Source: Eledone cirrhosa (taxonomy: Eukaryota). From it: DNA of 64,000 bases. Below are positions 1 through 61,679 of the stretch, piece after piece; the first letter of the stretch is position 1, and each line of letters starts with the position of its first letter. A program made the position numbers and the translations under genes. Location: assembly GCA_964016885.1 (NCBI GenBank), contig OZ024743.1, positions 348,936,001-349,000,000 of the forward strand, read 5' to 3'. The notes beneath the pieces were generated by a model. That model did no database searches and was not told the origin of the DNA. It saw nothing but the letters and a program-made list of their open reading frames with translations.

Positions 1-1793
1 TGCACAGCGACATCTGCTCTGTAGTGAGAGTGAACGGTCACCTTTCGGAACCGTTGAACATCATGCGCTCGGTCCGCCAAGGATGTCCCCTCTCGTCCCT
101 ATTGTACGTATTGACTCTCGAGCCATTACTGCACACTAGGATGCGGAAGGTCCGTGTCAGCATATGCCGACGATGTCACCGTTGTGGTGTCGAACGCCAA
201 ACACATCGAGGCGATCGGCACTACACTAAGAGAATACGAAGCGGTGACAGGAGCAAGAATCAACCAGGAAAAGTCAGTGGGCCTGCAGCTCGGCACCTGG
301 AGAGGCAGTTCCATGCCGTCCAACAGCGTCGTCGGGCGCTGGACAGACGGACCGGTTAAATTGCTAGGGGTCTGGTTCGGTCCAGACCTCCAGACGGACA
401 AAAACTGGGACGAGGTGACGAGCAGGGTGGCTTCTCTCACCCAGAAATGGGCGGAGAGGAAGCTATCCCTGAAAGGTCGAGCGGAGGTGGCTAACGCGTA
501 CATCGCGTCCGTCATCTACTACCGCCTGACCGTCGTACCTTGTCTAACTGCGCAGGAGCGTTTGCTCTTTCGCTTCTTGTGGAAGGGACGCGCTCCGATG
601 GTCAGGTGGTCCATCTGCTGTCAACACCCGCTACGTGGAGGGCTGGGCATGCCGTGGCTAATGATGCGCAGACACGCGCTCAGGCTACGACATCTCCACC
701 TCTTCCTCAACGGTGATCAGGTGTGGTCGCCGTTTGCTAGACAGGTTTTTCCCCAGCTCGTTTTCTTGACGGAGCTGCAGTCCTGGGTCAAGCGAAGACC
801 GAGTGGGAGCGCTTGGCGACTGGAATGTCTTCAGGCGCTCACAGCCCTCGACCAATCGGGCAATGTGATCTGTGGAAACTCCACCTTGGCGTTCTATAGG
901 GGATTAGTTGAGGGGAAGAGCGACGACGTACTTGGAGAAACTCTAGGTGTCGACGAAAATCAACTAGCCAATCTCTTCGGAAGGACTTTCGGGCCGGGGC
1001 CTATGGACAACTTCCAGAAATCCCTGGCCTGGCAGTGCCACCGGGGTGCTTTGCCAGTTCGGGATAAACTTTACAGGCATGGAGGTGCCGTCAGCCGGGC
1101 ATGTCCGAGATGCGCACAGGGCGACGAAACCGTCCTGCACGCACTCGTCCAGTGTCCGAGCATTGCTGACTTGTGGGTTTATGTCGAACACCTGCTGTCA
1201 CGTGTAGGACGGATCTAGCTATCAGCTGAGTCCATCGTGAGGATTGCCCCGCCCTCTTCCTTTAGCCGGGAAGGGCAGGCAGTTTTTATCTGTCTGGTGG
1301 CCATGGCGAAAGAGATAGTATGGTGGACACGTTTGAAAGGGCTGAAGACGAGCACTTACCTCTTCGGTGATGCCCTGATTAACCTTTTTCAAATTTCATC
1401 TGAAAAGGAAAATCAGGGTAGAGAGGGAAGTGCTCTCTTCCCAGCATTTTGTTGAAAGATGGGTGAGAGAAGCAAGTATGGCCCGAATGAATGGGCCTTC
1501 TCTGAGTATGTGTCTGTAAATTAAAGGTGGAAAACTGGGAGAGGGCACTTGCCCTGGTGGTCAGGGCCACTGTGGTCTGTTAATGGGCTTTCTCCACAAA
1601 TGTCCCTCGGAAGTGTCCTCCCTATTGGGGAATTTTTCTTTGTTATTTTATTTCATCCTCTGTTTTTTTTACACGCAGAAATACCCATTTGTACCGTCCT
1701 GTATTGTCCTGTACTGTCCTTAATGTCTACTTTATGTAAACCCTTGTGGTTAATAAAGAAAACATAATTATTATTATTATTATTATTATTATT
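1..1793 (+). mobile_element. Tx1/L1-clade LINE, 3' part (copy A): RT C-terminus, CCHC domain, 3' UTR, (TTA)n tail
   Basis: QGCPLS and SAYADD RT motifs in different frames; CPRC-x5-ETVLH-x4-C zinc knuckle; AATAAA near 1752 followed by (TTA)n ~1765-1793; nearly identical to 5592-7407. Confidence 0.93.
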
Positions 1794-2010
1794 GATTGCT
1801 ATGGTTGACGGAGGCTCGGCTCTGTAAGTTATTGTAAATTTTGAACGCTATAACAATTGTAAATTGTTTAAAACTTAGACCAACTTGTAGACAAAAACAC
1901 CCTCCTCCTCGTGAGAGGGGTCTTTCTGTCCGTTATTTGGCCCTTCGGAGTTAAATAACTGCTTATTGGGGTTTTGTACCCAATATTTATTTTAAACAAA
2001 AAAAAACAAC

Positions 2011-4009
2011 ATGGCTACGAAAAAGAATTTGCATAGGTCACTCCCACTCATTCCGTCTTCTTCTTCCTCAATCATCACTACAGCAGAGAGAAGATTGTCT
2101 CTCTCCCTCCCTTCTTTAAATGTGTCTCTCTCCCTCCCTTCTCTTTCGCAAGCGACGAAAGAAAAGAAAAGTCTCGTGCAAAGCGTGCAAGGTTTCTCTA
2201 CGACGACGACGACAGCGACGAAACAGGTGTGCGGGAAATACGAAAACCCAGTTCATTCGTCTGACGTCAGGAATAATAGCAGTAGCAGCCGTAATAACAA
2301 CAGCAACAGTGACAATGAAAACAACAGTAGCAGCCGCAACAGCATCACCAGCAGCATAAACAACAACAGCATTAGCAGCAGCAACACCAACAACAACCAC
2401 AGCAACAGCGGCGGAGGCAGTAGTCGTAGTACCTGCAACAACAACAAAAGTAACAGCAGTTCTGACGACAACAACAACAACAGCAGCAAAGAAAAACCAA
2501 TCTCATTTGCAGGTATTGCGAAAAACTTGGAAACAATCCTCATAACAAATGAGGAATTAGAGGAAGCGGAGAAGATGGTGACAAAGAACGGACACCGAGC
2601 AATCTGCAAGGCAGCGGAAAATGTTTCGAAACCCAACAGCACTGTACGGTCACGTACCGTACAGTAAGTACAAAATCCCGTAGGATGGAAAGAGTCACAG
2701 AGGCGCAAATACAAAAAGCCTTGGGGTCTGTGTGGCAGTGGAAAAAAACATCACCCGAGGCAAAAAATATGCCACCGTAGTCGTACTTTTTGCCACACCC
2801 CAGGAGGCAAAGGCCCAATCCGTAGTCACCCTAAGGAGCGAGGAAATGGTGTTGGTGCCCTCCTACTGCGGGCAAAAAATTGTGAGGGTCAAACTGACCC
2901 ATGTCCCCTCCGGAATGGCCCCTTCTTGGCTGGCCGCGTCTCTCCTCGTCGGAATCGAGGACAAAACAACTGTACTGCAAGTACAGAAAAAAGTAAGAGA
3001 AGATTGGGTCGGCACCTCCATTGAGATGCTAATCCAAACCAACCAGGAGTGCATCGAAGCTACCCCGGATGTGATAGACTTCGATAACGGCACTCAACTG
3101 CCCATAAGTGTTGAGGGAAAACGCCCGAAATGCTTTCGCTGTGGATCGAAGACTCACCTCAGGGCCTTCTGCAACGAGAAGACCCTGAGAAAGGAGAAAA
3201 CCCCCCTCCTTCCGAAACCGGCTCCACGGCTACCAGCAACAGGACAAGCGGCAACCAGGAACGATAGGTCCGTGGCACCCATACCCACGCCACGGAAATC
3301 AAAAACAGCAGCAGCAGTGGAAATATTAACAGCAATAACAGCAATACCAAATGCAGCTGCAACAGAGACTCCAGTGCAAACATCACCAACAACAACAAGT
3401 GAAAGAGTGGAGCTGGTACCCCTCCCCGACCTCACAGAATCAGACATGGAATGTGAGGTGGGAGAGTGATGGCAAAAGGTCGTAAGAAGGCACAAACGCA
3501 GAAGCAGGGCATCGTCGCCTTTGAAAAGGGAGGAAAGAAATGAGAAAAGGGTAAAGTCTACTGCAAAGAGACTCACAGCAGCAACACCACCAACACCATC
3601 AACACCCACACTAGCACCACCATCAGCACCGGCGTAAACCCCACCGCCAACAACACCTTCAACACCACCACCACAAGCACCAACATCGCAAACACAACAA
3701 CAAAACACACACACCCAGCAACAGCGACAAGAAAATAGCAGAACCACAACCCACCCCCAGAAAAACAAATGCACGGCAATAAATACACACAACAAGAAAC
3801 TAATGACTTACATAATTGAACACACAGACATTTCACAACACGACTACATAATACCAGCACCAATCAAAACGCCAACTAATATAAGACTGCTAAAAATAGC
3901 ACAGAATCAATACACAAACATTAAAACGAAATTCCCCAACGCAGTTGGTGATTTCAGGGACCTAGGAGGAACTATCAATCGAAGAGTATATTCAGACATA
4001 AGAGGGTAA
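2011..4009 (+). pseudogene. Tx1 ORF1 (gag-like nucleic-acid-binding protein), interrupted
   Basis: ORF pieces 2011-2667, 2732-3469, 3803-4009; Asn/Ser-rich N-terminus; CX2CX4HX4C knuckle CFRCGSKTHLRAFC. Confidence 0.8.
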
Positions 4010-7000
4010 GCTGGTGGTGCTGGACGTGACCAGCGGAGACGGGAAAGCTTTCAGGCTAGTGGCCGTCTATGCCCCGACAGGAGCAGGGCGGCCTGATTTC
4101 TCCCGGCGTCTGGAGACCTTTCTTGGAACATCCCGCTCTTTAGTGTTAGTGGGCGACTGGAACGGGATCTTAGATGCACGCTGCGACTGTGTGGGATTAG
4201 CGGATAGGGGTGGAGGGTGCAAGAGCCTCACCAACCTGCTCAGGCGTTTTGAACTGTCTGACAGGTACCGATTGGATTTCCCGAATGTGCCAATGTGGAC
4301 TTGGACAAATCGCATCGGGTCATCCAGATCACATCTAGATAGAGTATTTTGTAGGGAAGTAGATAGGTCTAGCATAGGCTGTCCACAATTCAAGATAGTC
4401 AGCTACACGGACCACAAATTCATGATCTGTGTGCTTGACTTAGATAGGCTTCATAGACGAGGACCCGGCTACTGGAAGCTAAACGCGTGCTTACCAGCGC
4501 GCAAGGCCTACAGAGGCCGGATTAGCGAACTAGTTAAGCGGGTGTTGACGGGGACCATCGTCAACAACAAGTGGTGGTTTGCTCTGAAAAGAGCGATTAG
4601 AATAGAATCCATTAGGTTTAGTAAGGCTTTAGCAATAGAGAAAAATAGAGCAGAGGGAGAACTAGTTAGAAAATTAGACGAGGCGCTTAGCAAAGGCATT
4701 GCGACCGACGTGCTTGCGGCGAAATTGGCCCTTGACCAATTCTTCAATGCAAAGCACGAAGGCTGCGTTGTCAGAGCAAGGGTGCGTGCTCTCAGACACG
4801 AGGGGACGAAAGCCGTTCAATGGGCCCGAGTGGCGAAGGCGCGTCGTGGCAACAAAGCCACGATCCGGTCTTTGGTGGACCCTGATGGGCGCATTCTACT
4901 CGATCCCGGGCAAAAGTGTGAAGCTTTTCAGCGACACTTCGCTCAGCTGTTCGGGGGCAGCGGTGGGCCGGGTCGAGGGATGGACTTTAGTGTCTACCTC
5001 GGCGGACTGCCGCGGCTCTCGGCCACTGAGGCGAGGTGTTGCGAAAAGCCGATAACAACCGCTGAAGTACGGGAGGCAATGACTGGCTGCACAAGGGGTA
5101 AATCGCCTGGTCTGGATGGTCTGCCCTATGAACTTTACGTACAGATGCCAGACTTGTTCGGAGGCCTCTTGGCGGACGTCTACTGCAACTGGCAATAGAA
5201 CGGGAGAATTCCCAGTTCTGTGAGCCGAGGAGCGGTGGCACTGCTGAGAAAGGATCCCAACAAGGGGGATAACATAGATAATTTCCAGCTCATAACTCTG
5301 CTAAACACAGAGTTCAATATTTTGGCCAAGGTGCTAGCAAAGAGGTTGGCGCTTGTCGTTGGTGGTATGGTGGGAGAGGCGCAGACATGCGCCATTCCCG
5401 ACAGATCCATCCACGACAACCTCCACCTCATGCGATACATCGTAGAGAGGGTAGGTAAGGAACCTGGCACGGGTGGGTCCTTGATCAATTTAGATCAGTC
5501 GAAAGCTTTCGATAGGGTCGACCATCGTTACCTAGCGGCAATCCTGAGGGCGGCTGGCTTTGGGCCCGTCTTCAGAGGCTGGATCGCTGCCATGCACAGC
5601 GACATCTGATCTGTGGTGAGAGTGAACGGTCACCTGTCGGAACCGTTCAACATCATGCGCTCGGCCCGCCAAGGATGTCCCCTCTCGTCCCTTGTGTACT
5701 TATTGACTCTCGAGCCATTACTGCACACTAGGATGCGGAAGATCCGTGTCAGCATATGCCGACGATGTCACCGTAGTGGTGTCGAACGCCAAACACATCG
5801 AGGCGATCGGCACTACACTAAGAGAATACGAAGCGGTGACAGGAGCAAGAATCAACCAGGAAAAGTCAGTGGGCCTGCAGCTCGGCACCTGGAGAGGCAG
5901 GTCCATGCCGTCCAACAAAATCTTCGGACGCTGGACGGACGGACCGATAAATTGCTAGGGGTCTGGTTCGGTCCGGACCTCCAGACGGACAAAACTTGGA
6001 CGAGGTGACGAGCAGGGTCGCTTCTCCCACCCAGAAATGGGCGGAGAGGAAGCTATCCCTGAAAGGTCGAGCGGATGTGGCTAACGCGTACATCGCGTCT
6101 GTAATCTGCTACCGCCTGACCGTCGTACCTTGTCCTAAGCCTCGCCTGACTGCGCTGGAGCATTTGCTCTTTCGCTTTTTGTGGAAGGGACGCGCTCCGA
6201 TGATCAGGCGGTCCATCTGTTGTCAACACCCGCTACGTGGAGGGCTGGGCATGTCGTGGCTGATGATGCGCAGGCACGCGCTCAGGCTACGACATCTCCA
6301 CCTCTTCCTCGACGGTGATCAGGTGTGGTCGCCGTTTGCTAGACACGTATTGCCCCAGCTCGTTTCCTTGACGAAGCTGCAGTCCTGGGTCAAGCGAAGA
6401 CCGAGAGGGGGCGCCTGGAGACTGGAATGTCTTCAGGCGCTCACAGCCCTCGACCAATCGGGCAATGTGATCGGTGGAAACTCCACCTCGGCGTTCTATA
6501 GAGGATTAGTGGAGGGGAAGAGCGACGACGTACTTGGGGAAACTCTAGGCGTCGACGAAAATCAACTAGCCAATCTCTTCGGAAGAACTTTCGGGCCAGG
6601 GCCTATGGACAATATCCAGAAATTTCTGGTCTGGCAGTGCTACCGAGGAGCCTTGCCAGTTCGGGATAAACTCTACAGGCATGGAGGTGCCGTCAGCTGG
6701 GCATGTCCGAGATGCGCGCAGGGCGACGAAACCGTCCTGCACGCACACGTCCAGTGTCCGAAAATTTCTGACTTGTGGGTTTATGTCGAACACCTGCTGT
6801 CGCGTTTAGGACGGATCCGGCTATCATCTGACCCCATCGTGAGGATTGCCCCGCCCTCCTTCTTTAGCCAGGAAGGGCAGGCAGTTTTTATCTGTCTGGT
6901 GGCCATGGCGAAAGAGATAGTATGGTGGACACGTTTGAAAGGGCTGAAGACGAGCACTTACCTCTTCGGTGATGCTTTGATTGACTTTTTCAAATTTCAT

Positions 7001-7120
7001 TTGAAAAGGAAAATCAGAGTAGAGAGGGAAGTGCTCTCTTCCCAGCATTTTGCTGAAAGATGGGTGAGAGAAGCAAGAATGGCCCGACTGAATGGACCTA
7101 CTCTGAGTATATATCTGTAA
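4002..7120 (+). pseudogene. Tx1 ORF2 (APE endonuclease + reverse transcriptase + CCHC), N-terminally deleted, with stops and frameshifts
   Basis: VYAP, GDWN, TDHK, YWKLN, SPGLDG, LDQSKAFDRV, QGCPLS, YADD motifs; in-frame stops ending the ORFs at 5198 and 5609. Confidence 0.92.
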
Positions 7121-7407
7121 ATTAAAGGTGGAAAACTGGGAGAGGGCTCTTGCCTTGGTGGTCAGGGTTATTGTGGCCTTTTACTCTGGGCTTTCTCCAC
7201 AAATGTCCCTCCGAAGTCTCCCCCCTATTGGGGAATTTTTCATTGTTATTTTTTGTTACATCCTCTGTTTTTGTTTTTTTACACGCAGAAATGCCCATTT
7301 GTACCGTCCTGTATTGTCCTGCACTGTCCTTAATGTCTACTTTATGTAAACCCTTGTGGTTAATAAAGAAATCATTATTACTATTATTATTATTATTATT
7401 ATTATTT

Positions 7408-30237: not shown

Positions 30238-33200
30238 TGTTTCTTTATTAGCCACAGGGGCACACAAGAAGGGGACAATTACAAACGGGGGAGTTTACAT
30301 ACAATAAAAACGCGTAAAATATTATCACAAATGCAAATTAAAAGTGAATCGATTTTCCCCAATAGGGGGAGACAGTTCATATGGGCAGCACATACCACCG
30401 TAAAAAATGTGCAACCCTTATCTCCAGGAGTACGAAGAGTTTGTAGCCCTTTCCTCTCTTCCTATTTTTCCTCAACCTACAGGCGGATATAAAGAGAAGG
30501 CCCATTCACTCGAGCCATTCTCGCCACTTTCACCCACCTTTCATAAAACTTGCTGGGGTAGAGCACCTCTCTCTCCATCCTGATTCTTCTTCCAAAGTAG
30601 TATTTGAAAAAGAGAATCAGTTGTTGGCCGGAGAAAAAGGTGTCTGCCCTCAGTCCTTTTAACTTCGTCCACCATACAACCTCTTTCGCCATAGCTATCA
30701 CACAAAGGAAAACCGTTTCTCCTTCGTTTTTGAAGGAGGGTGGCGGTTTGATCATGCCATTAGACTCGGTGGTCAACCGGATTGGTACCACCCGCGACGA
30801 TAGTCGTTCTACATAGCCTCACAGGTCGGTAACGCCCGGGCAGTGTATGAATGCGTGCGCGACGGTTTCTTCGTCTCGCACGCATCTCGGACAGATCTTT
30901 TTCGAAGGGTCCCAGCCCGGGCGCCCTTGTCTGTAGAGCTTGTCTCGAACTGGTAGAGCTCCTCGGTAGCACTGCCAGGCCAGGGACTTATGGAAGTTGT
31001 CCATCGGTCTCGGGCGGAAGGTCCTACCGAACAGACTGACCACTTCGTCTTCCTCCACGCCTAGATTTTCTCCGAGCGCGACTTCGCACTTGCTGCGGAT
31101 CAACCCTCTATAGACTGACGAAGTGGAATCTCCACTGATTGCCGGGTCCGCCTGCCAGAGGGCTGTGAGAGCCTGAGCACATTTGATGTTCCAGTCGCCC
31201 ATTTCTCTCGGTCTTTGCTTGACCCAGGAATGCAGCTCGGTCAGCGAGATGAGTCGTGGGAAGGCTCGCCTCACGAACGAAGCACACACCGGTTGTCCGG
31301 TGAGGAATACGTAGAGATACCGCAGCCTGAGCGCGTGTTTGTGCATCGTCAGCCACGGCATCCCCAGCCCTCCGTTGGAAGGGTGTTGGTAGCAGATGGA
31401 TCTTCTCACCAAAGGAGCCCGCTCCCTCCGATTGGAAGAGAGCGCGCTCCATTTTGGTGAGCGTTTTGGCTGGACAAGGCACGACGGTCAAGCGGTAATA
31501 GATGACGGACGCTATAAAAGTGTTCGCCACCTCCGCTCGACCTCAGCCCTCTTCTGGGTGAGTGCAAACACCTTGGCCGTCACCTCGTTCCAGCTCTTCT
31601 CCACCTGGAGCAAATCAGAGCAAACCAGACCCCCGAGCAGCTTCACCGGTCCTTCCGTCCAGCGTCCGACGACGCCATCGGAAGGCTCGGTCTGTCTCTC
31701 CACGATCCGAGTTGCAAACCGATGGACTTGTCCCGGTTCAGCTTAGCTCCTGTGAACCTTTCGTATTCCTTCAGTAAGATGCCGACTTCCTCGATTTGCG
31801 AGGTGCTCGACACCAATACTGACACGTTGTCGGTGCAGGCCGACGCCGCTTTCCGCAGTCCCTGTTCTAGAGGGATGCCCTGCAATAGCTCCAACTTCCG
31901 CAGTACTGGCTCGAAAGTCAGTACGTGCAGAAGAGAGGAGAGAGGGCATCCCAGTCGGTGGATCGCGTGATATGGAACGGCTCCGAGAGGTAGCCGTGCA
32001 CCTTGACCCTTGAGCAGATGTTGCTTTTGTGCATTGCAGCAATCCAGCCCCTGAACACAGGTCCGAAGCCTGCCGCCTCGAGCACCGCATCCAGGTACCG
32101 ATGGTCAACCGCATCAAAAGCCTTAGACTGTTCCAAGTTGATCAGCGCCCCACCGAAACCGGGTTTACACGCTACCCTCTCTACGATGTATCGCATAAGG
32201 TTGAGGGTGTCGTGTGTGGACCTGGTCGGGATTGCTCATGTCTGCGCTTCTCCCACCAGGTTTTCGACGACAAGCGCCACCCTCTTTGCCAACACCTTGG
32301 CCAAAATCTGTAACTCTGTGTTTAACAGAGTTATGGACCGGAATTTGCCTATGTCATCCCCCTTATACTCGTCCTTCCTGACTAGTGTGACTACGCCCCT
32401 GGTCACAGAACTAGGAATTCTCCCGTTCTGCTGCCAGTTGCAGTTGATCGCTTCCAGGAGACCGGAGAACAATCCGGCATTGCTACGTAAAATTCGTAGG
32501 GTAGACCGTCCAGACCTGGAGATTTGCGTTTGCCGCATCGGTTCAGCGCGTCTCCTATCTCAGCGGCTGAAATCCGCCTTACGCAGAACTTCGCCTCGCT
32601 GTCCGAGTGTCGCGGTAGGCCGTCGAGGTATGGACCAAAATCCATAGCCCTTCCCAGCGCGCCGCCCTGCCCGAACAGTTGAGCAAAGTGCCGCTGAAAA
32701 GCCATGCACATCTGCTTCGGCTCACGTATAACGCGTCTGTCTTAGTCCTTCAAATACCGAATCGTGGACTTGTTGCCACTTTCCCCTCCTTCACCCGGGC
32801 CCAGCTAACAGCTTTGTCTCCCTCGTTACCCAGAGCACGTATTTTGCTTCTGACAACGCAGCCCTCATGCTTTGTGTCGAAGAACTGGTCCAAGGCCGTT
32901 CTCGTTGCTAGCACGCTGGCTATGTTGCCACTCCTAAGTGCCTTTTCTACTTTATCTACCAGTTCCTTCTAGGTCCTATTTCTATCTAACGCTAATTCTT
33001 TAGTAAAAACTAACGAGTCTAATCTAACTTCACTCTTGAGAGAGTACCACCATCTGTTGTTGAAAACGGCCCCTGTCAAGTGCTGCTTAACTAAAGTGCT
33101 AATCCGCTTACTGTAAGCGTTTTCGTCGGTAAGGACAAGTTTAGCTTCCAGTAAGCGGGTCCTTGTCTATGGGTTCTATCAAGGTTGACCACTCCGGTCA

Positions 33201-35725
33201 CCAACTTGTGATCCAAATAGTCAACCATGAACATTCGTGGACAGCTTAATGTGTCCCTATCCTTGTTTCTAACTAGGAACATATCTAGGTACGACCTAGA
33301 TGTTGCGCTGCGATTAGTCCACAACCACAGTGGCACAGTCGGAAAATCTAGTCGATATCTATCGGCCAGATCAAATCGGGCGATTAACCGTTTGAGGCTG
33401 TTACACACCCCTCTATCGGGACATGCCCCTACATAGTCCCATCGTGCATCCAGGATACCATTCCAGTCCCCCACTAAAACCAAGGAGCAGGACGTTCACA
33501 GAAAAGTCTCTAGGCGCTGAAAGAAGTCTGGTCGCGGTGTCCCATATGGGGCATACGCTGCCACCAGCCTGAAGGCTCCAACTTCGCTACTGCCGACGTC
33601 TAGATCCACCAGTCGACCCTCCGGGTCCAGGTGTACCTTCCGTGTTTCGAGGCCCAGGTGTTTTCGCAGCAGAACGACCACCCTGTCCCTACTGACAGAG
33701 AGATGCATAGATCTCAAAGTCGTCGAAGATGGGGGCCAATTGGTGCTCGCTGCTGACCCTGGACACACAAATAGCTATCACATCCATTATGTGCGACCTG
33801 AGGACATTTTAGAGTTTGCCTTGATTCTAGGACATCCCCAGGCCGCGCACATTTAACGATCCAACTCTTATACCTGTCCTTCTCCTGGAGACCAGGCTGC
33901 ACACTTTCCATGGGGTGTCAGAAGGGTTGTTTGGTGGGTTGGTGGTTTGGGATGTGATGGGGACATCAGTGTGTGGTGGGATGGGGTGTTTGGTGGGGGA
34001 GGGGTATATGGGGTGGTGGTGGGGAAACATTTCAAAAGACGCGATTGATGGGTCTAGTACAGGGGTTCCCCACGTCCTCGGGGAAGTTCTGCTTGAGCAT
34101 TGCGTAGGTGTCCCTTGGGACCGTAATCATTTTTAAATGCGGTTTAGTCGCCGCGTTGGTGAACATTTTCCCTTCGGTTTCCACCGACGGTCTTTGTCCA
34201 TTGTTTGCATAACTGTTTTGTTGTTTGCGTTGATGTATGTATACTGTTTTTGTTGTGTTGTGTTTGTTTTTGTTTGTTGTTATTGTGTGTGTTTGCGTTT
34301 TGTAGTATTTGTTATATTTTCGGGGGGGGGGGTTATTTGTGATGTTTGTTCTGTTTGTGCTGGTGGCTGTGTGTTTGTTGTATTTTTGTTGATGTGGTGG
34401 CTTCTTTTCTTTCTTTTTACCGGTTGAAAGGGTACTCCCTCGTCTTCACTAGGTGACGTTGATAAGGGGTCCTCGTCCGTGTTGTTGGGGAGGGTTATAT
34501 TTTGGGGTTTTGTTGTGGTTGCGGGTGCTTTTGTATTTGTTTTAGGTGGGGAAGGGTTGGGTGGAACGGTGTCTTGTGTTGTTATTTTACTGTGTTGTTG
34601 TGGTTGTTGTGGCGGTGGTGGTGGCGGTGGGGGTGGTGTTTGTTTTGTTGTTGTGTGTGGGGTGGGCAGGAGCGTCTTTCTTTTGCGGGGGGGGAGGGGC
34701 ATTTAAAAGGGGACAGGAAGCCCTCAGGCGATCATTTCTTGAACAGTGGTAGCATGAAGGCCGCCTGCCCTCGACAGAAATGTTTATGAAGGCAAATCCA
34801 TCCAGAGACACCCGCTGCGGTATTCTTGCTATCCGTTCTGGTCTCATTTGGACCAGTATTTCAAGGCTATTGCCGCCGAATACGCCCACGGTGGATTCGC
34901 CTATCGAGAGGATTGTGTCCTCATCGTCTAAGAATCCCGTTAGCACCCACCAAAGGCTTGCATTTGGCCTGATGCCCGAGATTCTTATCCTTTGAGTTCT
35001 TTTCCCCAAATATGGGGGGAAAAGGTGTATAATTTGGATACAATTGCCGATACAGAGTATTTCCGTGCCGCTAATTGATCTTTCATTAGCACAGATATGC
35101 TTCCATGCAGTTTCCCTTTCTCTATAAAAGCGATATATTTCCAGGCACTACTTAGGACCAGCTTAATTTCGCTTTGGGACAATTGAGCCGGTTTCCTAGT
35201 TGCGTTGGAAATTGTCCTAAGAATTAAAGTCCTCAGGACTGTATCTTTTCTAACTTCTTCGGGGGATGAAATTGTGAATTCCCGACCTTCCCCAAAAGTT
35301 ACACAATGTGTTGCCTCCTTCAGCATCTCCCTGGCAGTCGAGAGGTCCAATGCCTTCTAAATATGTGTCTGTCGGACGGCCTGTGCGAAAGAGACTCTAG
35401 TCGTGGGTCAGCTCTCTTTCGTCTTGTTGTTCTTGTTGTCACTGATGTTGATATTTTTCGTATTTTCCTTGGTGTTGGTGTTGTTGTAGTCTTTGATGCT
35501 GGTATTATTGGTGTTGTCTTTATTTTTTCCTTTGTTGTTGTTGTCATTGTTGTTTTTATCATCATTATTGGTGGTGTTGTTGTTAATTTTGTTGTCATTG
35601 TACTGTTTGGTGTCATTTGTGTCGTTTGTATTTGAATTTGTTTTTACCATTTGATTTCGTCTTTCCATCTCCATAGTATCTATGTAGAAGAGAAGGGATG
35701 AAGACGATGTTGACTGCGAGTATAG
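30238..35725 (-). mobile_element. Tx1/L1-clade LINE, divergent family (copy D), near full length, decayed
   Basis: ORF1 remnants with CYHC..RLRASC knuckle; ORF2 RVGSLNVRG, GDWN, SPGLDG, KAFD, CPRC..H..C; AATAAAG 3' end near 30243. Confidence 0.92.
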
Positions 35726-39400: not shown

Positions 39401-39833
39401 TAACTCATTTCAAAGTTTCTTTTGTCGTCTTTCGGGTTAATGTTCTGTCTTCTAGGTATAAATGATTCGGTCCTATATTCAATGCCTAATTTATGAATTA
39501 TTTCAGAAGCTTCTCTATTTACAATTTCCATGTGTGTTGTTGTTGATGTGTGCTGTTGTTGATGTGTGTTGTTGTTGTCTCCGTTTGTGTTATTATTGTT
39601 GTGTGTGTTGTTATTGTTGTTTGTGTCTGCGTGTCTGTTGTTGTTGTTTCTGGGTATATTGTTATTGTTGTTGATGTTGGTGTGTGTGTTGTTGTTATTG
39701 TTGTTTGTATCTGTGTGTCTGTTGTTGTTGGGATGTGTGTTGTATATGTGTGTGCGTATATTGTTGCTTTTGTTTTTGTTTTTGTTTTTGTTTTTGAGGC
39801 TCCAGCGTAGTTTTGTAAATGATTTTTCTATTT
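36453..39833 (-). mobile_element. Penelope-like element (RT + C-terminal GIY-YIG; Nematis-like by motif recall), decayed, with a long AT-rich 3' region
   Basis: IEKSFTKLRW, RLIAPFKSDLG, GLYRDD, VNFLDVTL, IIWYSPPFS, KLSYS, CPL..C..VVYKC..YVGST..FKTR..H. Confidence 0.9.
36479..36581 (-). ncRNA. Type I hammerhead ribozyme, intact core, extended stem I
   Basis: Minus strand: tatttataaaacc..tattttat CTGATGA aagcgcaccaa..ttggttgccctt GAAA tatata TA ataaaata..ggttttataaata. Confidence 0.88.
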
Positions 39834-41735
39834 CTGCCGGCGTTGTATGGGCTTCGAAAAGACCATAAAACGGGCAGTGACCCTGTCACGGGACAACCAA
39901 CACGGCCAGTCTGTGGAGCTAACATTGCTAGTAACTACAGACTGTCCTACTTCCTCTCCCTGATCATACGCCCCATCATTGAAATGTCCCCAGATGTATG
40001 TGACAGCACGGAGGACCTCCTCAGCAGAATCGGCGTGAGTAACCGATCTAGGGACCTAACAAACTGCATAATAGGTAGTATGGATGTTGTGTCCCTGTAT
40101 CCATCCATTGACGTGGATTTTGCTGTGGAGAAATGCGTAGAAATGATCAGTGAGAGCAATGTTGAGTTCCGTGGGATTGATACCAGTGAGCTGGGACTCC
40201 TACTTAAACTTCCCTATAGTAATAATTACCTAGACACATATGACCTTAGCAACCTGTGCCCTACAAGACCAGCAAGAAGCAGACCACATACCATTACCTC
40301 AATGGCCAAGAAAACCCACACAGATAGATGGAACGGGTGGACCAGAGCCATACGGACACCCGAAAACCACGATGAACTTAAGAAAATGATTGCACATGCG
40401 GTAGGGGCCAGCATAAAACTAACCCTTAAGGAACATATGTTCAAATTTAATGGAAAAACATATGCCCAAGAGGAAGGAGCAGCCATTGGTGTTAGCATTG
40501 CAGGCGACATAGCTAACTTATTCACGGTATGGTGGGACAGTAGACTTAAACTTAAACTTAAAGAACAATTAGAAGCCTCCTTAACCCTGATAATGTACTC
40601 CCGCTACGTTAATGATATAAACATCGTAGTTAAGACACCCCCTCTAGAGAACAGTCAGGAACTAGAGGAAAACACAATGGAAAGCATCCAGCAAATAGCA
40701 AACTCCATCCACCAGAGCATTAAAGTTACTATAGACTACCCAAGTAAACACCCCAACCATCGATTACCTGTACTAGACACAGAGCTCTGGTTAGATACCA
40801 TTAACAACAAAAAACAAATCCTCCATTCCCATTATGCCAAACCCATGACTTCCAAACATCTGATCCACCGAAACTCGGCCGTTTCGGACCATACCAAAAT
40901 CAACATACTGATTGCGGATTTGGTACGGGTGATGAGAAATGTGTCCCGCATGTGCAACCCCGAAGAACTAGAGAGACACATACAACACTTCATCCACCGT
41001 ATGTAGTTCTCTGGCTACAACCAGAGAGATAAAATCAGAGTGTATAGAGGAGCCAGAACCAAATGGGAAAAAAATGGTAAATAATGACATACATGGGACC
41101 TGCCCCTTGTATAGGAGCAAATTTTGGAATAGAATAAAAAGAACTAGGAACAAGGCTAATAGAATAAACTCATGGTATGATAGCAATAAATACCAGAGTG
41201 TAATGTTCATCGATACAACCCCTAGAGGGGAATTAGCTTACAAATTTAGAAGGGCCCTAAACAAACATATACTCAATATTAAGATAGTAGAAAGACCAGG
41301 TACCTCCGTAAAACACGTATTAGCAAGACATACCCTTTTCAAAGACCCCCAAGTACAGATAAGAAATGTATAACCTGTAAAATAAGCCCCCATATTAACT
41401 GCAAAACTAGAAATGTAGTGTATAGCATAAGATTTACTGAAGGACAATGTAGAGACAAAAATATAGTGTACATAGGTGAGACAGCTCGTAGTGTAGGAGA
41501 ACGGATAAATGAACACTGGCGAGACCTTCAAGATAGTAAAGAATCATCTGTACTCTACCAACATGCTAAAATAGAACACAAGGTTAAATTAAAGAACATA
41601 GAAATAAAAATAGAATCTACACACAGAAAAGACGCAATGTTTAGACAAATTACAGAGGCAATAAACATAAAAGAATTACAACCAAAATTAAATAGAAAAT
41701 ATGAGTGGAACAGCAACATCACAACTTACAATTAA
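39834..41735 (+). pseudogene. PLE RT/GIY-YIG polyprotein, interrupted; catalytic YVDD reads YVND
   Basis: ORFs 39819-41006, 41074-41373, 41418-41735. Confidence 0.85.
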
Positions 41736-41936
41736 GTACAAAATGAAAACACACACACACATAGAACAAACAACCAACCAGTAACATGTAAATAAACAAA
41801 TAAATAAATGAACATAAACACACACAGACACCCGGATGTGGCGCATGCGCAGACTGAGCACACAACACACACACAGATACAAAATGGCGTAGGACAGAAC
41901 AAAGGAGAGACACAGAAACAAAGAAAGGAATCCCCA

Positions 41937-41979
41937 GTCACTGAAGAGGTCACAGAGTGTGTGACGAAAGAACTATGAC
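41937..41979 (+). ncRNA. Minimal type I hammerhead, intact core
   Basis: gtca CTGAAGA g gtcac agagtgt gtgac GAAA gaac TA tgac. Confidence 0.85.
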
Positions 41980-42429
41980 AATATATAAACAACTATCTGG
42001 TTGTGGAACCAACCAACCAGAAATTTATAAATTTATAAATTTATTATAAATTTATTATAATAAATTGAAGTGAAAGCAACTGGTTCGTGTGTTTCTTATT
42101 GGCAACATGACCCTCCCAAAGTATAACAATATCGGTTTCAACACACGATTTCAGATAAAGAATCTTGCTAAACAAATTCAGAAACGAAATATATATATAT
42201 ATATATATATATATATCAATGAGAACAGAAGGCCTAGATTCTAATATATTATTTAGACTATGAGGCAAGACAATCGATGACGGGACCAGGTGTAATAGTC
42301 ATAAAAAATTTAGTTCAGTAATTCTTACAGGGTCATAGCAAAGATAAACAAAGGATTGCTAATCGTAATGTCTAGATCAACCCATTAATCAAACCATCCA
42401 ACATAGACTGTACGTATATATATATGTGT

Positions 42430-43810: not shown

Positions 43811-43984
43811 ATGAAATAAAATGAAAACGAAATTTCATTTCTCACGTATATACACACATACTTACATATATATATATATGAATGTATATATAGTGTATTT
43901 TGCAATATACTGTATGTTTAATTAAAAGCATTTTGAAGACCTTACACTATTGTTTTAAAGTAGTGACAATGTCGCTTACTTAAA

Positions 43985-44076
43985 TTTTCAGCAAACATGG
44001 GAGATAAGCTGACAAAGCTCTGTTTCGTACTTGATGGTACTTATCAAATCTCACTACTCTTCTTGTTTGCTGAAAA
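43985..44076 (-). ncRNA. Type I hammerhead with U3-A8 core variant
   Basis: Minus strand: ttttcagcaaaca..gtgagat TTGATAA gtac catcaa gtac GAAA cagagctttg TC agcttat..tgtttgctgaaaa. Confidence 0.8.
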
Positions 44077-44384
44077 GTATGTGTGTTGGATTCTTATAAA
44101 ATGCCAGTAATAATCAGGAACTGATTATACAGAGCGGTCGCCGGTCCAGCAGAAATTGAAAATTAGAATTGGTGCTCTGAAATAGCGATATATATATGAA
44201 TGTATATATAGTGTATTTTGCAATACACTGTATGCTTAATTAAAAGCATTTTGAAGACCATACGCTATTGTTTTAACGTAGTGACAATGTCACTTACTTA
44301 AATTTTTAGCAAACAGGGGAGATAACATGACAGAGCTATGTTCCTGATTATTACTGGAATTCTATAAGAATCCAACACACATAA

Positions 44385-44476
44385 TTTTCAGCAAACAGGA
44401 AGACTAGTGAGCTTTAATAAGTACCAACAAGTACGATACAGAGCTCTGTCAGCTTATCTCCCCTGTTTGCTGAAAA
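44385..44476 (+). ncRNA. Inverted copy of the R2 hammerhead, core decayed
   Basis: ttttcagcaaacagg..gtgagct TTAATAA gtac caacaa gtac GATA cagagctctg TC agcttat..cctgtttgctgaaaa. Confidence 0.72.
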
Positions 44477-44827
44477 TTTAAGTAAGTGACATTGTCACTA
44501 CTTTAAAACAATAGCGTATGGAAAATTATCAAAATCTGTGATACAATAAGATATATTTGAAGAAAGAGAAGAACCCCTCCACTGGTGGTTTGTGGATGGA
44601 ATACCAACCACCTTTCTACTCATTGTTTTCGTTTTACAAACATGTATTTCTATGCATGTAATTGTGTACTGCAATTTGTGTATATTTACCATATCTCATC
44701 TTAGGCTGAGATCCTGTCGAGTCAATAAAATATATTGGTTTTCTATTGGCCCAAAGATGCATGTCATATTATTAGTATAACCTATAGTTTTGATTCAATG
44801 AAACATTTGTCACTCATTTATTTATGA

Positions 44828-57879: not shown

Positions 57880-58030
57880 TTTTCTTTTTCGTTTCTTATA
57901 TAAATAAGAAAAATCTTTACAAGCACAAAACCCACATCGTACCCTCCTGTACCGTCCTGTGCCGCCTGTAATGTTTTTCTTGATGTCATCCCTTGTGGCC
58001 AATAAAGAAATTATTATTATTATTATTATT
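57880..58030 (+). mobile_element. Tx1 3' UTR stub with (TTA)n
   Basis: TGTACCGTCCTGT..CCCTTGTGGCCAATAAAGAAA(TTA)n. Confidence 0.75.
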
Positions 58031-59004
58031 CAGCCTCTACTAGAATGTCTTCAGGCGCTCACGGCCCTCAACCAGTCGGGCAATGTAATCTTTGGAAACT
58101 CCAACTTGGCGTTCTATAGAGGATTAGTGGAAGGGAAGAACGACGACGTACATGGGGAAACTCTAGGCATCGACGAAAATCAACTAGCCAATCTCTTCGG
58201 AAGAACTTTCGGGCCAGAGCCTAAGGACAATTTTCAGAAATCCCTGGCCTGGCAGTGCTACCGAGGCGCTTTGTCAGTTCGGGATAAACTCTACAGGCAT
58301 GTCCGGGATGCGCGCAGTGCGACGAAACCGTCCTGCATGCACTCGTCCAGTGTCCGAGCATTGCTGACTTGTGGGTTTATGTCGAACACCTGTTGTCGCG
58401 TGTAGAACGGATCCGGCTATCAGCTGAGTCCATCGTGAGGATTGCCCCGCCCTCATCCTTTAGCCGGGAAGGGCAGGCAGTTGTTATCTGTCTGGTGGCT
58501 ATGGCGAAAGAGATAGTATGGTGGACACGTCTGAAAGGGCTGAAGACGAACACTTACCTCTTCGGTGATACCCTGATTAACTTTTTCAAATATCATTTGA
58601 AATGGAAAATCAGGGTAGAGAGGGAAGTGCTCTCTTCCCAGCATTTTGTTGAAAGATGGGTGAGAGAGGCAAGAATGGCCCGAGTGTTGAAAAATTCCCC
58701 AATACTCTGAGTATATGCCTTTAAACTTAAGGTGGAAAACTGGGAGACGGCACTTGGCCTGGTGGTCAGGATCACCGTGGCTTTTTGAATGGGCTTTCTC
58801 CACAATGGCCCTCGGAAGTTTCCCCCCTATTGGGAAATCTTTCATTGTTCTTTTTTGTTACATCCTTTGTTTTTTTGTTTTTTTACACGCAGAAATGCCC
58901 ATTTGTACCGTCCTGTATTGTCCTGTACTGTCCTTAATGTCTACTTTGTGTAAACCCTTGTGGTTAATAAAGAAAGCATTATTATTATTATTATTATTAT
59001 TATT
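58031..59004 (+). mobile_element. Tx1 3' fragment, A/B family
   Basis: Near-identical to ~820-1793; (TTA)n tail. Confidence 0.92.
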
Positions 59005-61679
59005 CTGGCATATTTACGTAAAGCTCGTAGGATAGGCCATCCAAACCGGGTGACTTGCGCTTCATGCTGCCGACAAGGGCGGCCTGAATTTCGGCTCAAG
59101 TAATCGGCCTTTCGCAGCGCTCAGCGTCGACCGTCGAGATGCGCGGCAAGTCGTCAAGGTAGGGACTGACATCCGCTACTCTCTCTGACTCGCCACTCTC
59201 CCCGAACAACCGAGAAAAGTGCTGGCGATTACGCTTGGAATTGCTTATCTCGTGTCCGTCTCGGTCCGCCAGAGAGCGTATTGTGGTTTTATTACCACGC
59301 TGTGCCTCCGCCATGCGGGCCCATCGAATAGATTTGTTTCCCTCGTTTCTCAGCGCACGCGCCTTAGCTCTGACAATGCAACCTTCGTGTTTCGCATTGA
59401 AGAAATGGTCTAATGCCATTCTCGCTACTAGCACATCAGTTGCAATGCCACTACAAATAGCCTCGTCTAACTTATCTACCAGTTTGTTCTCCGATCTCCT
59501 CGAAGCACTCTAATGCAACTGGCAGATGAATGGGAGTATTCCCAGTTCTGTGAGCAGGGGAGTGGTGACACTGATAAAGAAAGACGAGAACAAGAGGGAT
59601 ACATTAGACAACTTCAGGCCCATAACTCTGCTCAACACAGAGTTTAAGATTTTGGCCAAGGTGTTAGCAAAGAGATTGGCGCTTGTCATCGAGGATTTGG
59701 TTAGGGAGGCGGAAACTTGCGCAATCCCAGCCAGGTCTATACACGACAATCTCCACCTCATGCGATACATCATAGAGAGGGTAGGGTGTAAACCTGTCTT
59801 CGGTGGAGCACTGATCAATTTAGGTCAATCGAAAGCATTCGATAGGGTCGACCATCGGTATCTGGAGTTTGTCCTCAAAGCGGCTGGCTTCGGCCCTGTC
59901 TTCAGAAGCTGGATCGCTGCAATGCACAGCGTCAAGGTTAATGGCCACCTCTCGGATTCAATTCGGCCTTCTCTCTTCCCTTCTGTACGTATTGACTCTC
60001 GAGCCTTTACTGCGGACGCTGGGCATCCCGCTCGAACCGGGACGTGGGAAGGCGGTGTCGGCTTATGCGGACGACATCACTGTGATGGTTTCGGACACCT
60101 CAGAAATCGAGGTGGTCGGTACCTTATTGAAGGAATAGGAAAGGTTGATAGGAGCCAAACTTAGGCCGGAAAAGTCAGTGGGCTTGCAACTCTGAACCTG
60201 GAGAGGCAAGCCTATGCCGTCCAACAGCGTCGTGGGGCGCTGGACGGACGGACCGGTTATGTTGCTCGGGGTTTGGTTTGGACCAGACCTCCAGGTGGAA
60301 AAGAAATGGGACGAGGTAACGAGCAGAGTAGCCAGTCTCACCCAAAAATGGGCTGGGAGGAAGCTATCACTGAAACCTCGCGCGGAGGTGGCGAATGCGT
60401 ACATCGCATCCGTCATCTACTACCGCCTGACAGTCGTGCCTTGACCCCGTCCTCGCCTCGTCAATTTGGAACGGCTCCTCTTCAAATTCTTGTGGAGGGG
60501 ACAAGTTCCCTTGGTTAGGCGGTCCATCTGCTGTCAGCACCCTCTACGCGGAGGGCTGTGCATGCGTGGCTAATGATGCGCAGACATGCATTGAGGCTGC
60601 GACATCTCCAGATATTCTACCTAAACGGTGAACAGTTGTGGTCGCCGTTTATCAGACGGGCCTCTCCGCAGATCGTTTCATTGACTGAGCTGCTGTCCTG
60701 GCTCAAGTAGAGACCAAGACTGGGTGACTGGCACCTGGAATGTTGCCAGGCACTAACTGCTCTCTACCAAGCGGGCAATGCGATCAGTGGAACTTCCACT
60801 CTCTGGTTCTATAGATGATTAGTGGTGGGTAAGTGCGATGACGCACTCGGAGAAGCTTTGGGCCTCGACGAAGTCGAACTGACCAGTCTGTACCGGATGA
60901 CTTTTGAGCCGGGAACGATGGACAATTTCCAGAAATACCTCGGTTAGCAGTGCTACCGGGGGGCACTGCCGGTTCGGAATAAACTCTACAGGCGAGGAAG
61001 TGCTGTCAGACGGACCTGCCCGAAATGCGCACAGAACGACGAAACCGTTCTGCACGCACTTGTCCAATATTCGTGCATTACTGACTTGTGGAGTTATGTT
61101 GTCGCGTGTAGAGCAGGAAATTTTCCTCTGTCTGGTGGCCGTTGAGAAAGAGATTATATGGTGGACCAGATTAAAAGGACTGAAGACAGACACTTTTCTC
61201 TTTGGCCAATCCCTTATCAACTTCTTCAAGTTTCACCTGGAAAGGAAGGTGAGGGTGGAGAGAGAAGTGCTGCCCCCCAGTACATTTGCTAAAAGGGGGA
61301 TGAATGTGGCGAGAATAGCCCGTGTTAATGTGCCTTCTCTGACCATGCGCCTATAGGCTAGCTAACTTGAGGAGAGGGTGCTCTGCCTGGGTGCCCTAGA
61401 AGCGCAGGGTGGTTCAGGATTGGTGGGGTACCTGAGTCACTCCAGGGTCGTCCACCCCCTATCGGGGAATTTATTTTGTTATGTTTCGTTATGCAGTTTA
61501 TTTTATATTTTTTATATCTTCATTGTTAAATTAGTCTTGTCATTGTGCACTTTTACTCTACCTTATTGTAAACCGCCACTGTCCCTGTCTTTGTATTGTC
61601 CCCTACATCTCGGCCCTTGTGACTAATAAATGAAATCATTATTATTATTATTATTATTATAATTATTATTATTATTATT
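59005..61679 (+). mobile_element. Tx1 copy E, 5'-truncated with an inverted 5' segment (59005-~59483)
   Basis: Minus-strand KLVDKLDE..SPGLDGLSYELYVNMP joined to plus-strand LFSDLLEAL*CNWQ..RT..3' UTR (TTA)n. Confidence 0.9.

What the first reader, a model, noticed from the sequence alone, without database searches (positions are those of the whole stretch)
43870..44521. Candidate retrozyme family R2: 318-bp monomer with a U3-A8 variant hammerhead
It is unrelated in sequence to R1 but has the same design: non-coding monomer, partial tandem, inverted terminal segment, (TA)n junction. The core reads UUGAUAA, replacing the C3-G8 tertiary pair with U3-A8, a compensatory swap known to retain activity and missed by CUGANGA searches. 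It has a 13-15 bp distal stem I with an internal loop, a gtac/gtac stem II, a palindromic CAGAGCUCUG stem III and a GUC site. The monomer size is in the range of animal retrozyme circRNAs. The inversion breakpoint falls at the GAAA of the second monomer.
Basis: partly seen in the sequence, partly recalled or inferred. Interest (0 to 1): 0.85.

Follow-up and report, generated by a model that had tools for sequence, protein, structure and literature searches.

The report
Hammerhead retrozyme with swapped core pair
This is one decayed copy of a 318-base non-coding repeat present thousands of times in this animal genome, whose units carry a predicted self-cutting hammerhead RNA with a rare but already known core base swap and were likely pasted in by Penelope-type jumping-gene enzymes; the kind of element is known, but its subfamilies give natural test pairs for how such RNAs would be switched off and on.

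Summary
Observation confirmed, with corrections. The hammerhead is on the minus strand (core 44047-44041). The perfect CAGAGCUCUG palindrome belongs to the family consensus; this copy reads CAGAGCUUUG and has a broken stem I pair, and the inverted copy's core is dead. The family has at least 3,244 3' segments genome-wide and arrays of up to 19 units. U3 and A8 are fixed together (196 of 200 listed cores in two subfamily groups). One subfamily instead fixes C3-G8 (94 of 100), and 13 of 29 stem pairs covary, so the ribozyme fold is under selection. Insertions carry the Penelope-like (PLE) footprint: head-to-head arms, a 26-31 bp tail on exactly one arm (32 of 36 loci) and (TA)n targets. A Neptune/Nematis-type PLE in this genome shares that footprint. 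Folding predicts a self-blocked monomer and an active double hammerhead. Cleavage, circles and expression are not shown. It is an animal non-LTR retrozyme; natural U3-A8 cores are in print (2011, 2014). The scan has reported similar U3-A8 retrozymes before, in this and other genomes. Verdict: new variant of a known kind, interest 0.45.

The parts
43870..44187 (-). Full 318-bp monomer (subfamily S17), 13 differences from the family consensus
43985..44076 (-). Type I hammerhead motif: distal stem I, internal loop, proximal stem I (one pair broken at 44049), core, stem II, stem III
44041..44047 (-). Core UUGAUAA (U3-A8 in place of C3-G8)
44027..44040 (-). Stem II, 4 bp with a 6-nt loop
44013..44022 (-). 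Stem III; palindromic in the family consensus, one wobble in this copy
44010..44011 (-). Predicted cleavage site, after GUC (C17 = 44011)
   Evidence: hammerhead numbering; weak genomic support
44188..44342 (-). Partial second monomer (positions 164-318), 5' part of the direct arm
44340..44521 (+). Inverted arm (positions 67-248) with a dead hammerhead core (G5 and A14 changed); outer end and tail missing
43866..43879 (.). (TA)n tract at the element's 3' end, the likely target site
   Evidence: 85 of 102 arms elsewhere end in TA

Best explanation
This is a decayed copy of a non-coding 318-bp repeat family whose RNA likely cuts itself with a hammerhead ribozyme, likely closes into a circle, and is likely copied back into (TA)n DNA by the enzymes of a Penelope-like retroelement. 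Shown from sequence: the family, the arrays, a conserved and covarying hammerhead fold, U3-A8 fixed in most subfamilies and C3-G8 in one, head-to-head arms with a tail on one arm only, TA targets, and arms longer than one unit. Inferred: (1) Read-through transcripts of tandem copies pair two palindromic stems III into a double hammerhead, which cuts after GUC and releases 318-nt monomers. (2) A monomer alone is predicted to fold with U3-U4-G5 and the stem I strand paired into the stem III palindrome, so it would not cut itself and would be stable once a host ligase closes it. (3) A PLE endonuclease would nick (TA)n, and its reverse transcriptase would start at two fixed points 26-31 nt apart, one on each side of the break. 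It would copy round the template and join the two cDNAs head to head. The enzyme donor is likely a Neptune/Nematis-type PLE such as the very abundant family 1.7 kb away, but this is not shown. The window copy is probably inactive or weak.
For: Family size: 3,244 exact hits of a 27-nt 3' motif, reversed control 0; 1,257 intact-core hits over three patterns. Arrays of 18, 14 and 19 units. Selection on the fold: the 10 invariant core positions are identical in all 7 cluster consensuses while 44 of 92 motif positions vary; 13 of 29 pairs change on both sides, 95.7% of cells pair, 0 of 500 shuffles reach this, and slid controls pair 35-45% (38 hand-picked rows). U3-A8 is active in vitro according to Perreault 2011 (passage). 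PLE footprint: tail on exactly one arm in 32 of 36 two-armed loci, TA at 85 of 102 arm ends, as described for PLEs (passages). The neighbouring PLE family also has two alternative 3' ends into TA, a CX4CxxC linker and a similar divergence. Both arms come from one source: same subfamily in 29 of 31 loci, chance 0.40; rare variants shared 14.4% between inverted arms and 8.5% between tandem units against 0.8% between loci. Template longer than a cut monomer: 81 of 102 arms cross the cleavage site, 40 exceed one unit, 13 cross two sites. Folding: in the three U3-A8 subfamilies tested the single hammerhead lies 2.9-7.0 kcal/mol above a blocked fold, and the double hammerhead is itself the lowest-energy fold of a linked pair.
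Against: No RNA, circle or cleavage was observed. Arm starts at the cleavage site are only weakly enriched: 4 of 176 arms, 3 of 105 loci, p about 0.02, tied with position 191. The earlier excess at positions 176-207 (20 of 105, p 0.004) fails a best-window control (p 0.11). Long arms and shared variants fit uncut linear multimers as well as a circle. No excess of A-to-G changes on the sense strand (133 against 93 T-to-C, p 0.07). R2 shares no meaningful sequence with the neighbouring PLE, and the one R2-PLE composite examined (L178) has tails at both ends, against a single event. The folding model ignores tertiary contacts, which favour the active fold. The C3-G8 subfamily is not predicted to be blocked (gap 0.7 kcal/mol). 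In Li et al. 2026 only 1 of 9 predicted retrozyme dimers cleaved in vitro. Only 121 of 179 sampled motifs keep a full core.
Confidence: 0.6

Rival explanations
1. Same family, ribozyme and PLE carrier, but no circle: the template is a linear read-through transcript of tandem copies in which the hammerhead cuts only some sites, trimming the 5' end.
For: Arrays of 14-19 units exist as sources. Some arms begin exactly at the cut site and still span a second, intact site (L162, L163, L137; L162 and L163 were picked for that junction). Most arms are under two units long (3 of 102 exceed 636 nt).
Against: Related animal retrozymes accumulate largely as circles. The monomer folds strongly as a circle (z -5.8 to -8.4 for three subfamilies, 25 shuffles), although the antisense strand does too.
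Confidence: 0.3
2. The hammerhead is a relic and the repeat spreads as a satellite or passive PLE cargo with no need for cleavage.
For: No activity data. Many copies have broken cores (58 of 179), including 10 of 18 and about half of the units in two arrays.
Against: The core is invariant across subfamilies 7-19% apart, with compensatory changes in all three stems and in the 3-8 pair. A sister family only 63% identical keeps a hammerhead at the same place. Decay after insertion explains the broken copies.
Confidence: 0.05
3. The element is a SINE-like passenger of the abundant LINE-type retrotransposons in this genome.
For: Several LINE-like reverse transcriptase fragments lie in the window, and LINEs can make 5' inversions (recalled).
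Against: There is no poly(A) or (ATT)n tail. The two fixed 3' ends, the one-arm tail and the head-to-head arms match PLE insertions.
Confidence: 0.05

Closest known systems
Animal non-LTR retrozymes (coral 220-245 bp, mussel 350-390 bp, axolotl 330/350 bp; Cervera and de la Pena 2020, PMC7229834, parts 2-4 of 6 read; Li, Clavereau and Pollet 2026, bioRxiv 10.64898/2026.07.22.740005, parts 1-3 of 5 read)
   Same: Non-coding monomer of a few hundred bases, low GC (0.34-0.35), one type I hammerhead per unit, monomers to multimers, co-occurring with PLEs.
   Different: U3-A8 core in most subfamilies; a 4-bp stem III with a palindromic loop rather than 1-2 bp; monomer predicted to be self-blocked (the 2020 paper says most animal retrozyme circles are not, some mussel ones excepted); mostly dispersed two-armed insertions. 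RNA is not shown here.
U3-A8 hammerheads: natural examples in Perreault et al. 2011 (PMC3088659, passages) and ~1,300 minimal motifs of Schistosoma Cercyon PLEs (Cervera and de la Pena 2014, PMC4209133, parts 1-2 of 4 read)
   Same: The same compensatory swap of the 3-8 core pair.
   Different: Here it sits in a full-size motif with stems I, II and III inside a non-coding repeat, and both versions of the pair are fixed in sister subfamilies of one family.
Penelope-like elements, Neptune/Nematis and Naiad clades (Craig et al. 2021, bioRxiv 10.1101/2021.04.23.441226, passages; Arkhipova et al. 2013, PMC3846280, passages)
   Same: Partial tandems, an inverted 5'-truncated arm, a ~30-bp tail at one end only, (TA)n targets.
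   Different: No coding sequence, and no sequence similarity to the one PLE family examined here.

Membership tests
Non-LTR retrozyme | Non-coding monomer of about 150-450 bp, GC under 50% | tested here: met
   318-320 bp, GC 0.34-0.35, longest ATG ORF on the circle 28-44 aa
Non-LTR retrozyme | One type I hammerhead motif per unit | tested here: met
Non-LTR retrozyme | Head-to-tail tandem copies with intact motifs | tested here: met
   arrays of 18, 14 and 19 units, with 8, 7 (count includes one separate copy nearby) and 15 intact cores
Non-LTR retrozyme | Many dispersed copies, no LTR/PBS/PPT design | tested here: met
   3,244 motif hits; no LTR-like layout in the loci mapped; PBS and PPT were not searched for separately
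Non-LTR retrozyme | RNA self-cleavage | not testable with these tools
   indirect only: covariation, weak excess of arm starts at the site
Non-LTR retrozyme | Accumulation as circular RNA | not testable with these tools
   needs RNA data that the session did not hold
Non-LTR retrozyme | Target-site duplication longer than 4 bp, when present | tested here: inconclusive
   TA tracts at the ends hide any duplication
Type I hammerhead ribozyme | Conserved core with a Watson-Crick 3-8 pair | tested here: met
   U-A or C-G by subfamily; 10 other core positions invariant
Type I hammerhead ribozyme | Stems I, II and III supported by covariation | tested here: met
Type I hammerhead ribozyme | Loop 1 - loop 2 tertiary contact | tested here: inconclusive
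   loop 2 and its flanks align to Hammerhead_HH9; the loop 1 register differs by one base between subfamilies; no structural test
Type I hammerhead ribozyme | Rfam gathering score | tested here: not met
   best 20.2 bits against 52; none in the window
PLE-mobilised element | Head-to-head arms, tail on one end only, microsatellite target | tested here: met
   32 of 36 loci; 85 of 102 arm ends
PLE-mobilised element | Sequence shared with the pseudo-LTR of an autonomous PLE | tested here: not met
   no meaningful match to the one PLE family examined (30 loci and the window copy); other PLE families were not examined
Autonomous PLE | Reverse transcriptase and GIY-YIG ORF | tested here: not met
   no ORF of 150 aa or more in the element; same-strand copies a few kb apart were separate insertions or arrays

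The most novel reading that the evidence does not exclude
R2 is a retrozyme with a built-in switch: the single unit hides its own catalytic strand in the stem III palindrome and stays uncut, while two units swap strands and cut. The U3-A8 swap, gained once from a C3-G8 ancestor, weakens the blocking helix just enough to let pairing win. This would answer, for one family, the open question of how animal retrozyme circles avoid cutting themselves, with natural C3-G8 and U3-A8 subfamilies as controls.
Probability: 0.25. Interest if true: 0.65.

Novelty: new variant of a known kind. Interest (0 to 1): 0.45.

Why it matters
Two points left open in the papers read become testable on one family. First, PLE mobilisation of animal retrozymes was proposed in 2020 and supported by distribution and trees in 2026; here the insertion ends carry the PLE footprint directly. 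Second, the 2020 paper asks how the ribozyme in animal retrozyme circles is silenced; here self-pairing is predicted to do it. The family also shows that searches requiring CUGANGA miss large retrozyme families (at least 1,081 intact U3-A8-type core hits in two patterns). It does not reveal a new class of element or a new ribozyme chemistry.

Tried and rejected
Expression: no RNA holder listed; two runs of unknown kind laid as contigs show only that the repeat is abundant. Neither bears on expression. A second laying on the window locus gave no answer, so the local assembly was not checked against reads. RNA-editing marks as evidence of a circular template, a lead from an earlier finding: none found. 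An autonomous PLE carrying R2 as its pseudo-LTR: same-strand copies 2-8 kb apart proved to be separate insertions or arrays, and the 5' flanks of 27 one-armed loci showed no common PLE sequence apart from one case; a Pfam family I recalled for PLEs is not in the library. The inversion point at GAAA as a functional signal: rejected. A peak of arm starts at the cut site: weak. Five perfect and one imperfect palindromic junction at the site exist genome-wide, but no control at another 4-base palindrome was run. In one search most of the 100 listed rows (of 193) were intact copies of another subfamily; by hand, 16 of 24 junction rows began at positions 178-181 (6 exactly at 178) and 8 at 172-177. 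Rooting by midpoint suggested U3-A8 was ancestral; the outgroup favoured the reverse, without rejecting other roots. The first chance-level script had a faulty descriptor (last two lines) and was redone. In-silico swap of the 3-8 pair supported the tuning idea in S17, S1 and the sister family, was neutral in S6 and went against it in S14. Two papers (Przybilski and Hammann 2007; Lunse et al.) are not held, and the supplement of PMC7229834 could not be read; it, and the closed supplements of the 2026 preprint, may list cephalopod or U3-A8 retrozymes.

Full report
Observation. The window holds a full 318-bp unit at 43870-44187, a partial second unit at 44188-44342 and an inverted arm at 44340-44521. 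On the minus strand the full unit contains a type I hammerhead with core UUGAUAA at 44047-44041, a 4-bp stem II, GAAA, a 4-bp stem III and GUC. It is the only such motif in the window and none appears in 200 shuffles. This copy differs from the family consensus at 13 of 318 sites, one of which breaks a proximal stem I pair. The inverted arm has lost G5 and A14, and the partial unit lacks the 5' half of the motif. The locus is therefore a decayed insertion. Rfam misses it; a cleaner copy gives a sub-threshold Hammerhead_HH9 match.

Genome context. The genome is 3.0 Gb and rich in microsatellites. I take it to be a cephalopod, probably an octopus; that is my inference and no call names it. The monomer search gave 1,938 candidates, 40 scored. 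A 27-nt 3' motif has 3,244 exact hits. I took the first 70 loci on contig 1 as a positional sample, plus the 30 best-matching loci. Three long arrays turned up, with 18, 14 and 19 units.

Is U3-A8 fixed? Yes, by subfamily. With positions 3 and 8 free, 99 of 100 listed cores (508 hits) and 97 of 100 (573 hits) are U3-A8, and the rest are single changes. In 179 aligned motifs, 156 are U-A, 6 C-G and 17 other. The six C-G motifs form one subfamily (S14) with core CUGAGGA: 176 hits, 94 of 100 listed C-G, 6 single changes, no U-A. Clustering 161 monomers gave five dispersed subfamilies 7-19% apart, each copy about 4-5% from its consensus. The ten invariant core positions never vary among the seven cluster consensuses, while 44 of 92 motif positions do. 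On 38 rows that I picked across subfamilies, 13 of 29 named pairs change on both sides, in all three stems and at 3-8; no shuffle of 500 reaches this and slid controls pair only 35-45%. Relatedness inflates such counts, but the changes fall in several different subfamilies.

Direction of the swap. A sister family was found by chance: a 310-bp unit, about 63% identical and collinear, with the same tail and a canonical CUGAUGA or CUGAAGA core, young (95-100% identical copies). Used as outgroup, it joins the C3-G8 subfamily in the best tree with all columns, without the two pair columns and without the whole motif, but two other roots are never rejected (AU p 0.17-0.25; S16 was left out for lack of full copies). 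A single gain of U3-A8 from C3-G8 is thus favoured, not proven.

How it was inserted. Of 65 sampled loci (5 arrays or complex loci dropped; two of the 65 are duplicates), 36 have two opposed arms. In 32 of these, one arm ends at monomer position 318 and the other carries a further 26-31 bp. 85 of 102 properly ended arms run into TA. Craig et al. 2021 and Arkhipova et al. 2013 describe this layout for PLEs (passages). The two arms belong to the same subfamily in 29 of 31 loci and share rare variants far more than unrelated loci do. 81 of 102 arms cross the cleavage site and 40 exceed one unit, so the template was a circle or an uncut multimer; these data do not separate the two. [quoted passage not shown] It has 22,944 candidates, 120 scored, two alternative 3' ends into TA and a similar divergence. 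It shares no meaningful sequence with R2. One sister-family insertion is fused to this PLE and obeys the one-tail rule across both elements (L182); the one R2 composite (L178) does not. The carrier is therefore inferred from the footprint.

Does it cut? Not shown. Perreault et al. 2011 report natural U3-A8 cores and cite in vitro activity (passage). Arms start exactly at the first base after the site in 4 of 176 cases, 3 of 105 loci (p about 0.02, tied with another position), and five perfect palindromic junctions centre on that base genome-wide, without a matched control. Folding predicts that in S17, S6 and S1 the single hammerhead lies 6.0, 2.9 and 7.0 kcal/mol above a fold in which U3-U4-G5 and the stem I strand pair with the stem III palindrome (probability 0.98-1.00 in the circle). 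The double hammerhead is the lowest-energy fold of a linked pair. The blocking helix is kept by a compensatory change in S1. S14 is not predicted to be blocked. Swapping the 3-8 pair in silico penalised the double hammerhead in S17, S1 and the sister family (1.1-2.2 kcal/mol per unit), not in S6, and helped it in S14. These are secondary-structure predictions without tertiary energy.

Comparison. It works like, and on the sequence-testable features is a member of, the animal non-LTR retrozymes; cleavage and circles are untested. U3-A8 is known from Schistosoma PLE minimal motifs and other natural hammerheads. Five searches found no paper describing a cephalopod retrozyme or a U3-A8 retrozyme family; the library lacks most subscription papers and two supplements could not be read. 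Other papers were seen as passages only: PMC6155905, PMC6765202, PMC3884650, PMC6962438. I had reached my reading before those look-ups, and they are not independent support.

Verdict. A real element, a new variant of a known kind, interest 0.45. The most novel reading not excluded is a self-blocked monomer activated by pairing and tuned by the U3-A8 swap (probability 0.25, interest 0.65 if true).

Noticed in passing
window 39819-42190 (+): 5'-truncated, decayed Penelope-like element (RT, CX4CxxC linker, GIY-YIG) with its own minimal hammerhead (CUGAAGA core near 41940) and a tail of about 68 bp into (TA)n; very abundant family, some copies with open frames over 1,100 aa.
   Followed up: partly
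L155, L165-L175 (e.g. G000:C22:10733658-10734868): Young 310-bp sister retrozyme family, about 63% identical to R2, canonical core, minimal palindromic stem III, multimers of near-identical units.
   Followed up: partly
L182 (G000:C22:10727000-10735600): Composite insertion: PLE inverted arm without tail at the left end, PLE body fused at a 5-bp overlap to sister-retrozyme units ending with the tail at the right end; a possible template-switch chimera.
   Followed up: partly
L131 (G000:C1:268923410-268930960): R2 array of 19 motifs with a periodic higher-order unit that contains a short inversion, suggesting later DNA-level amplification of a two-armed insertion.
   Followed up: no
L012; L062; L104: Insertions that join units of two different subfamilies (L012: a C3-G8 unit directly upstream of a U3-A8 unit), suggesting template jumps, mixed multimers or nested insertion.
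   Followed up: no
L092: Four to five tandem copies of a 166-bp deleted unit (positions 230-77) that lacks the hammerhead; a possible ribozyme-less sub-circle or local duplication.
   Followed up: no
   Followed up: no
window 1-7400, 30500-33600, 58000-61400: Several copies of a LINE-type retrotransposon with RVT_1 and zf-RVT matches and (ATT)n ends.
   Followed up: no
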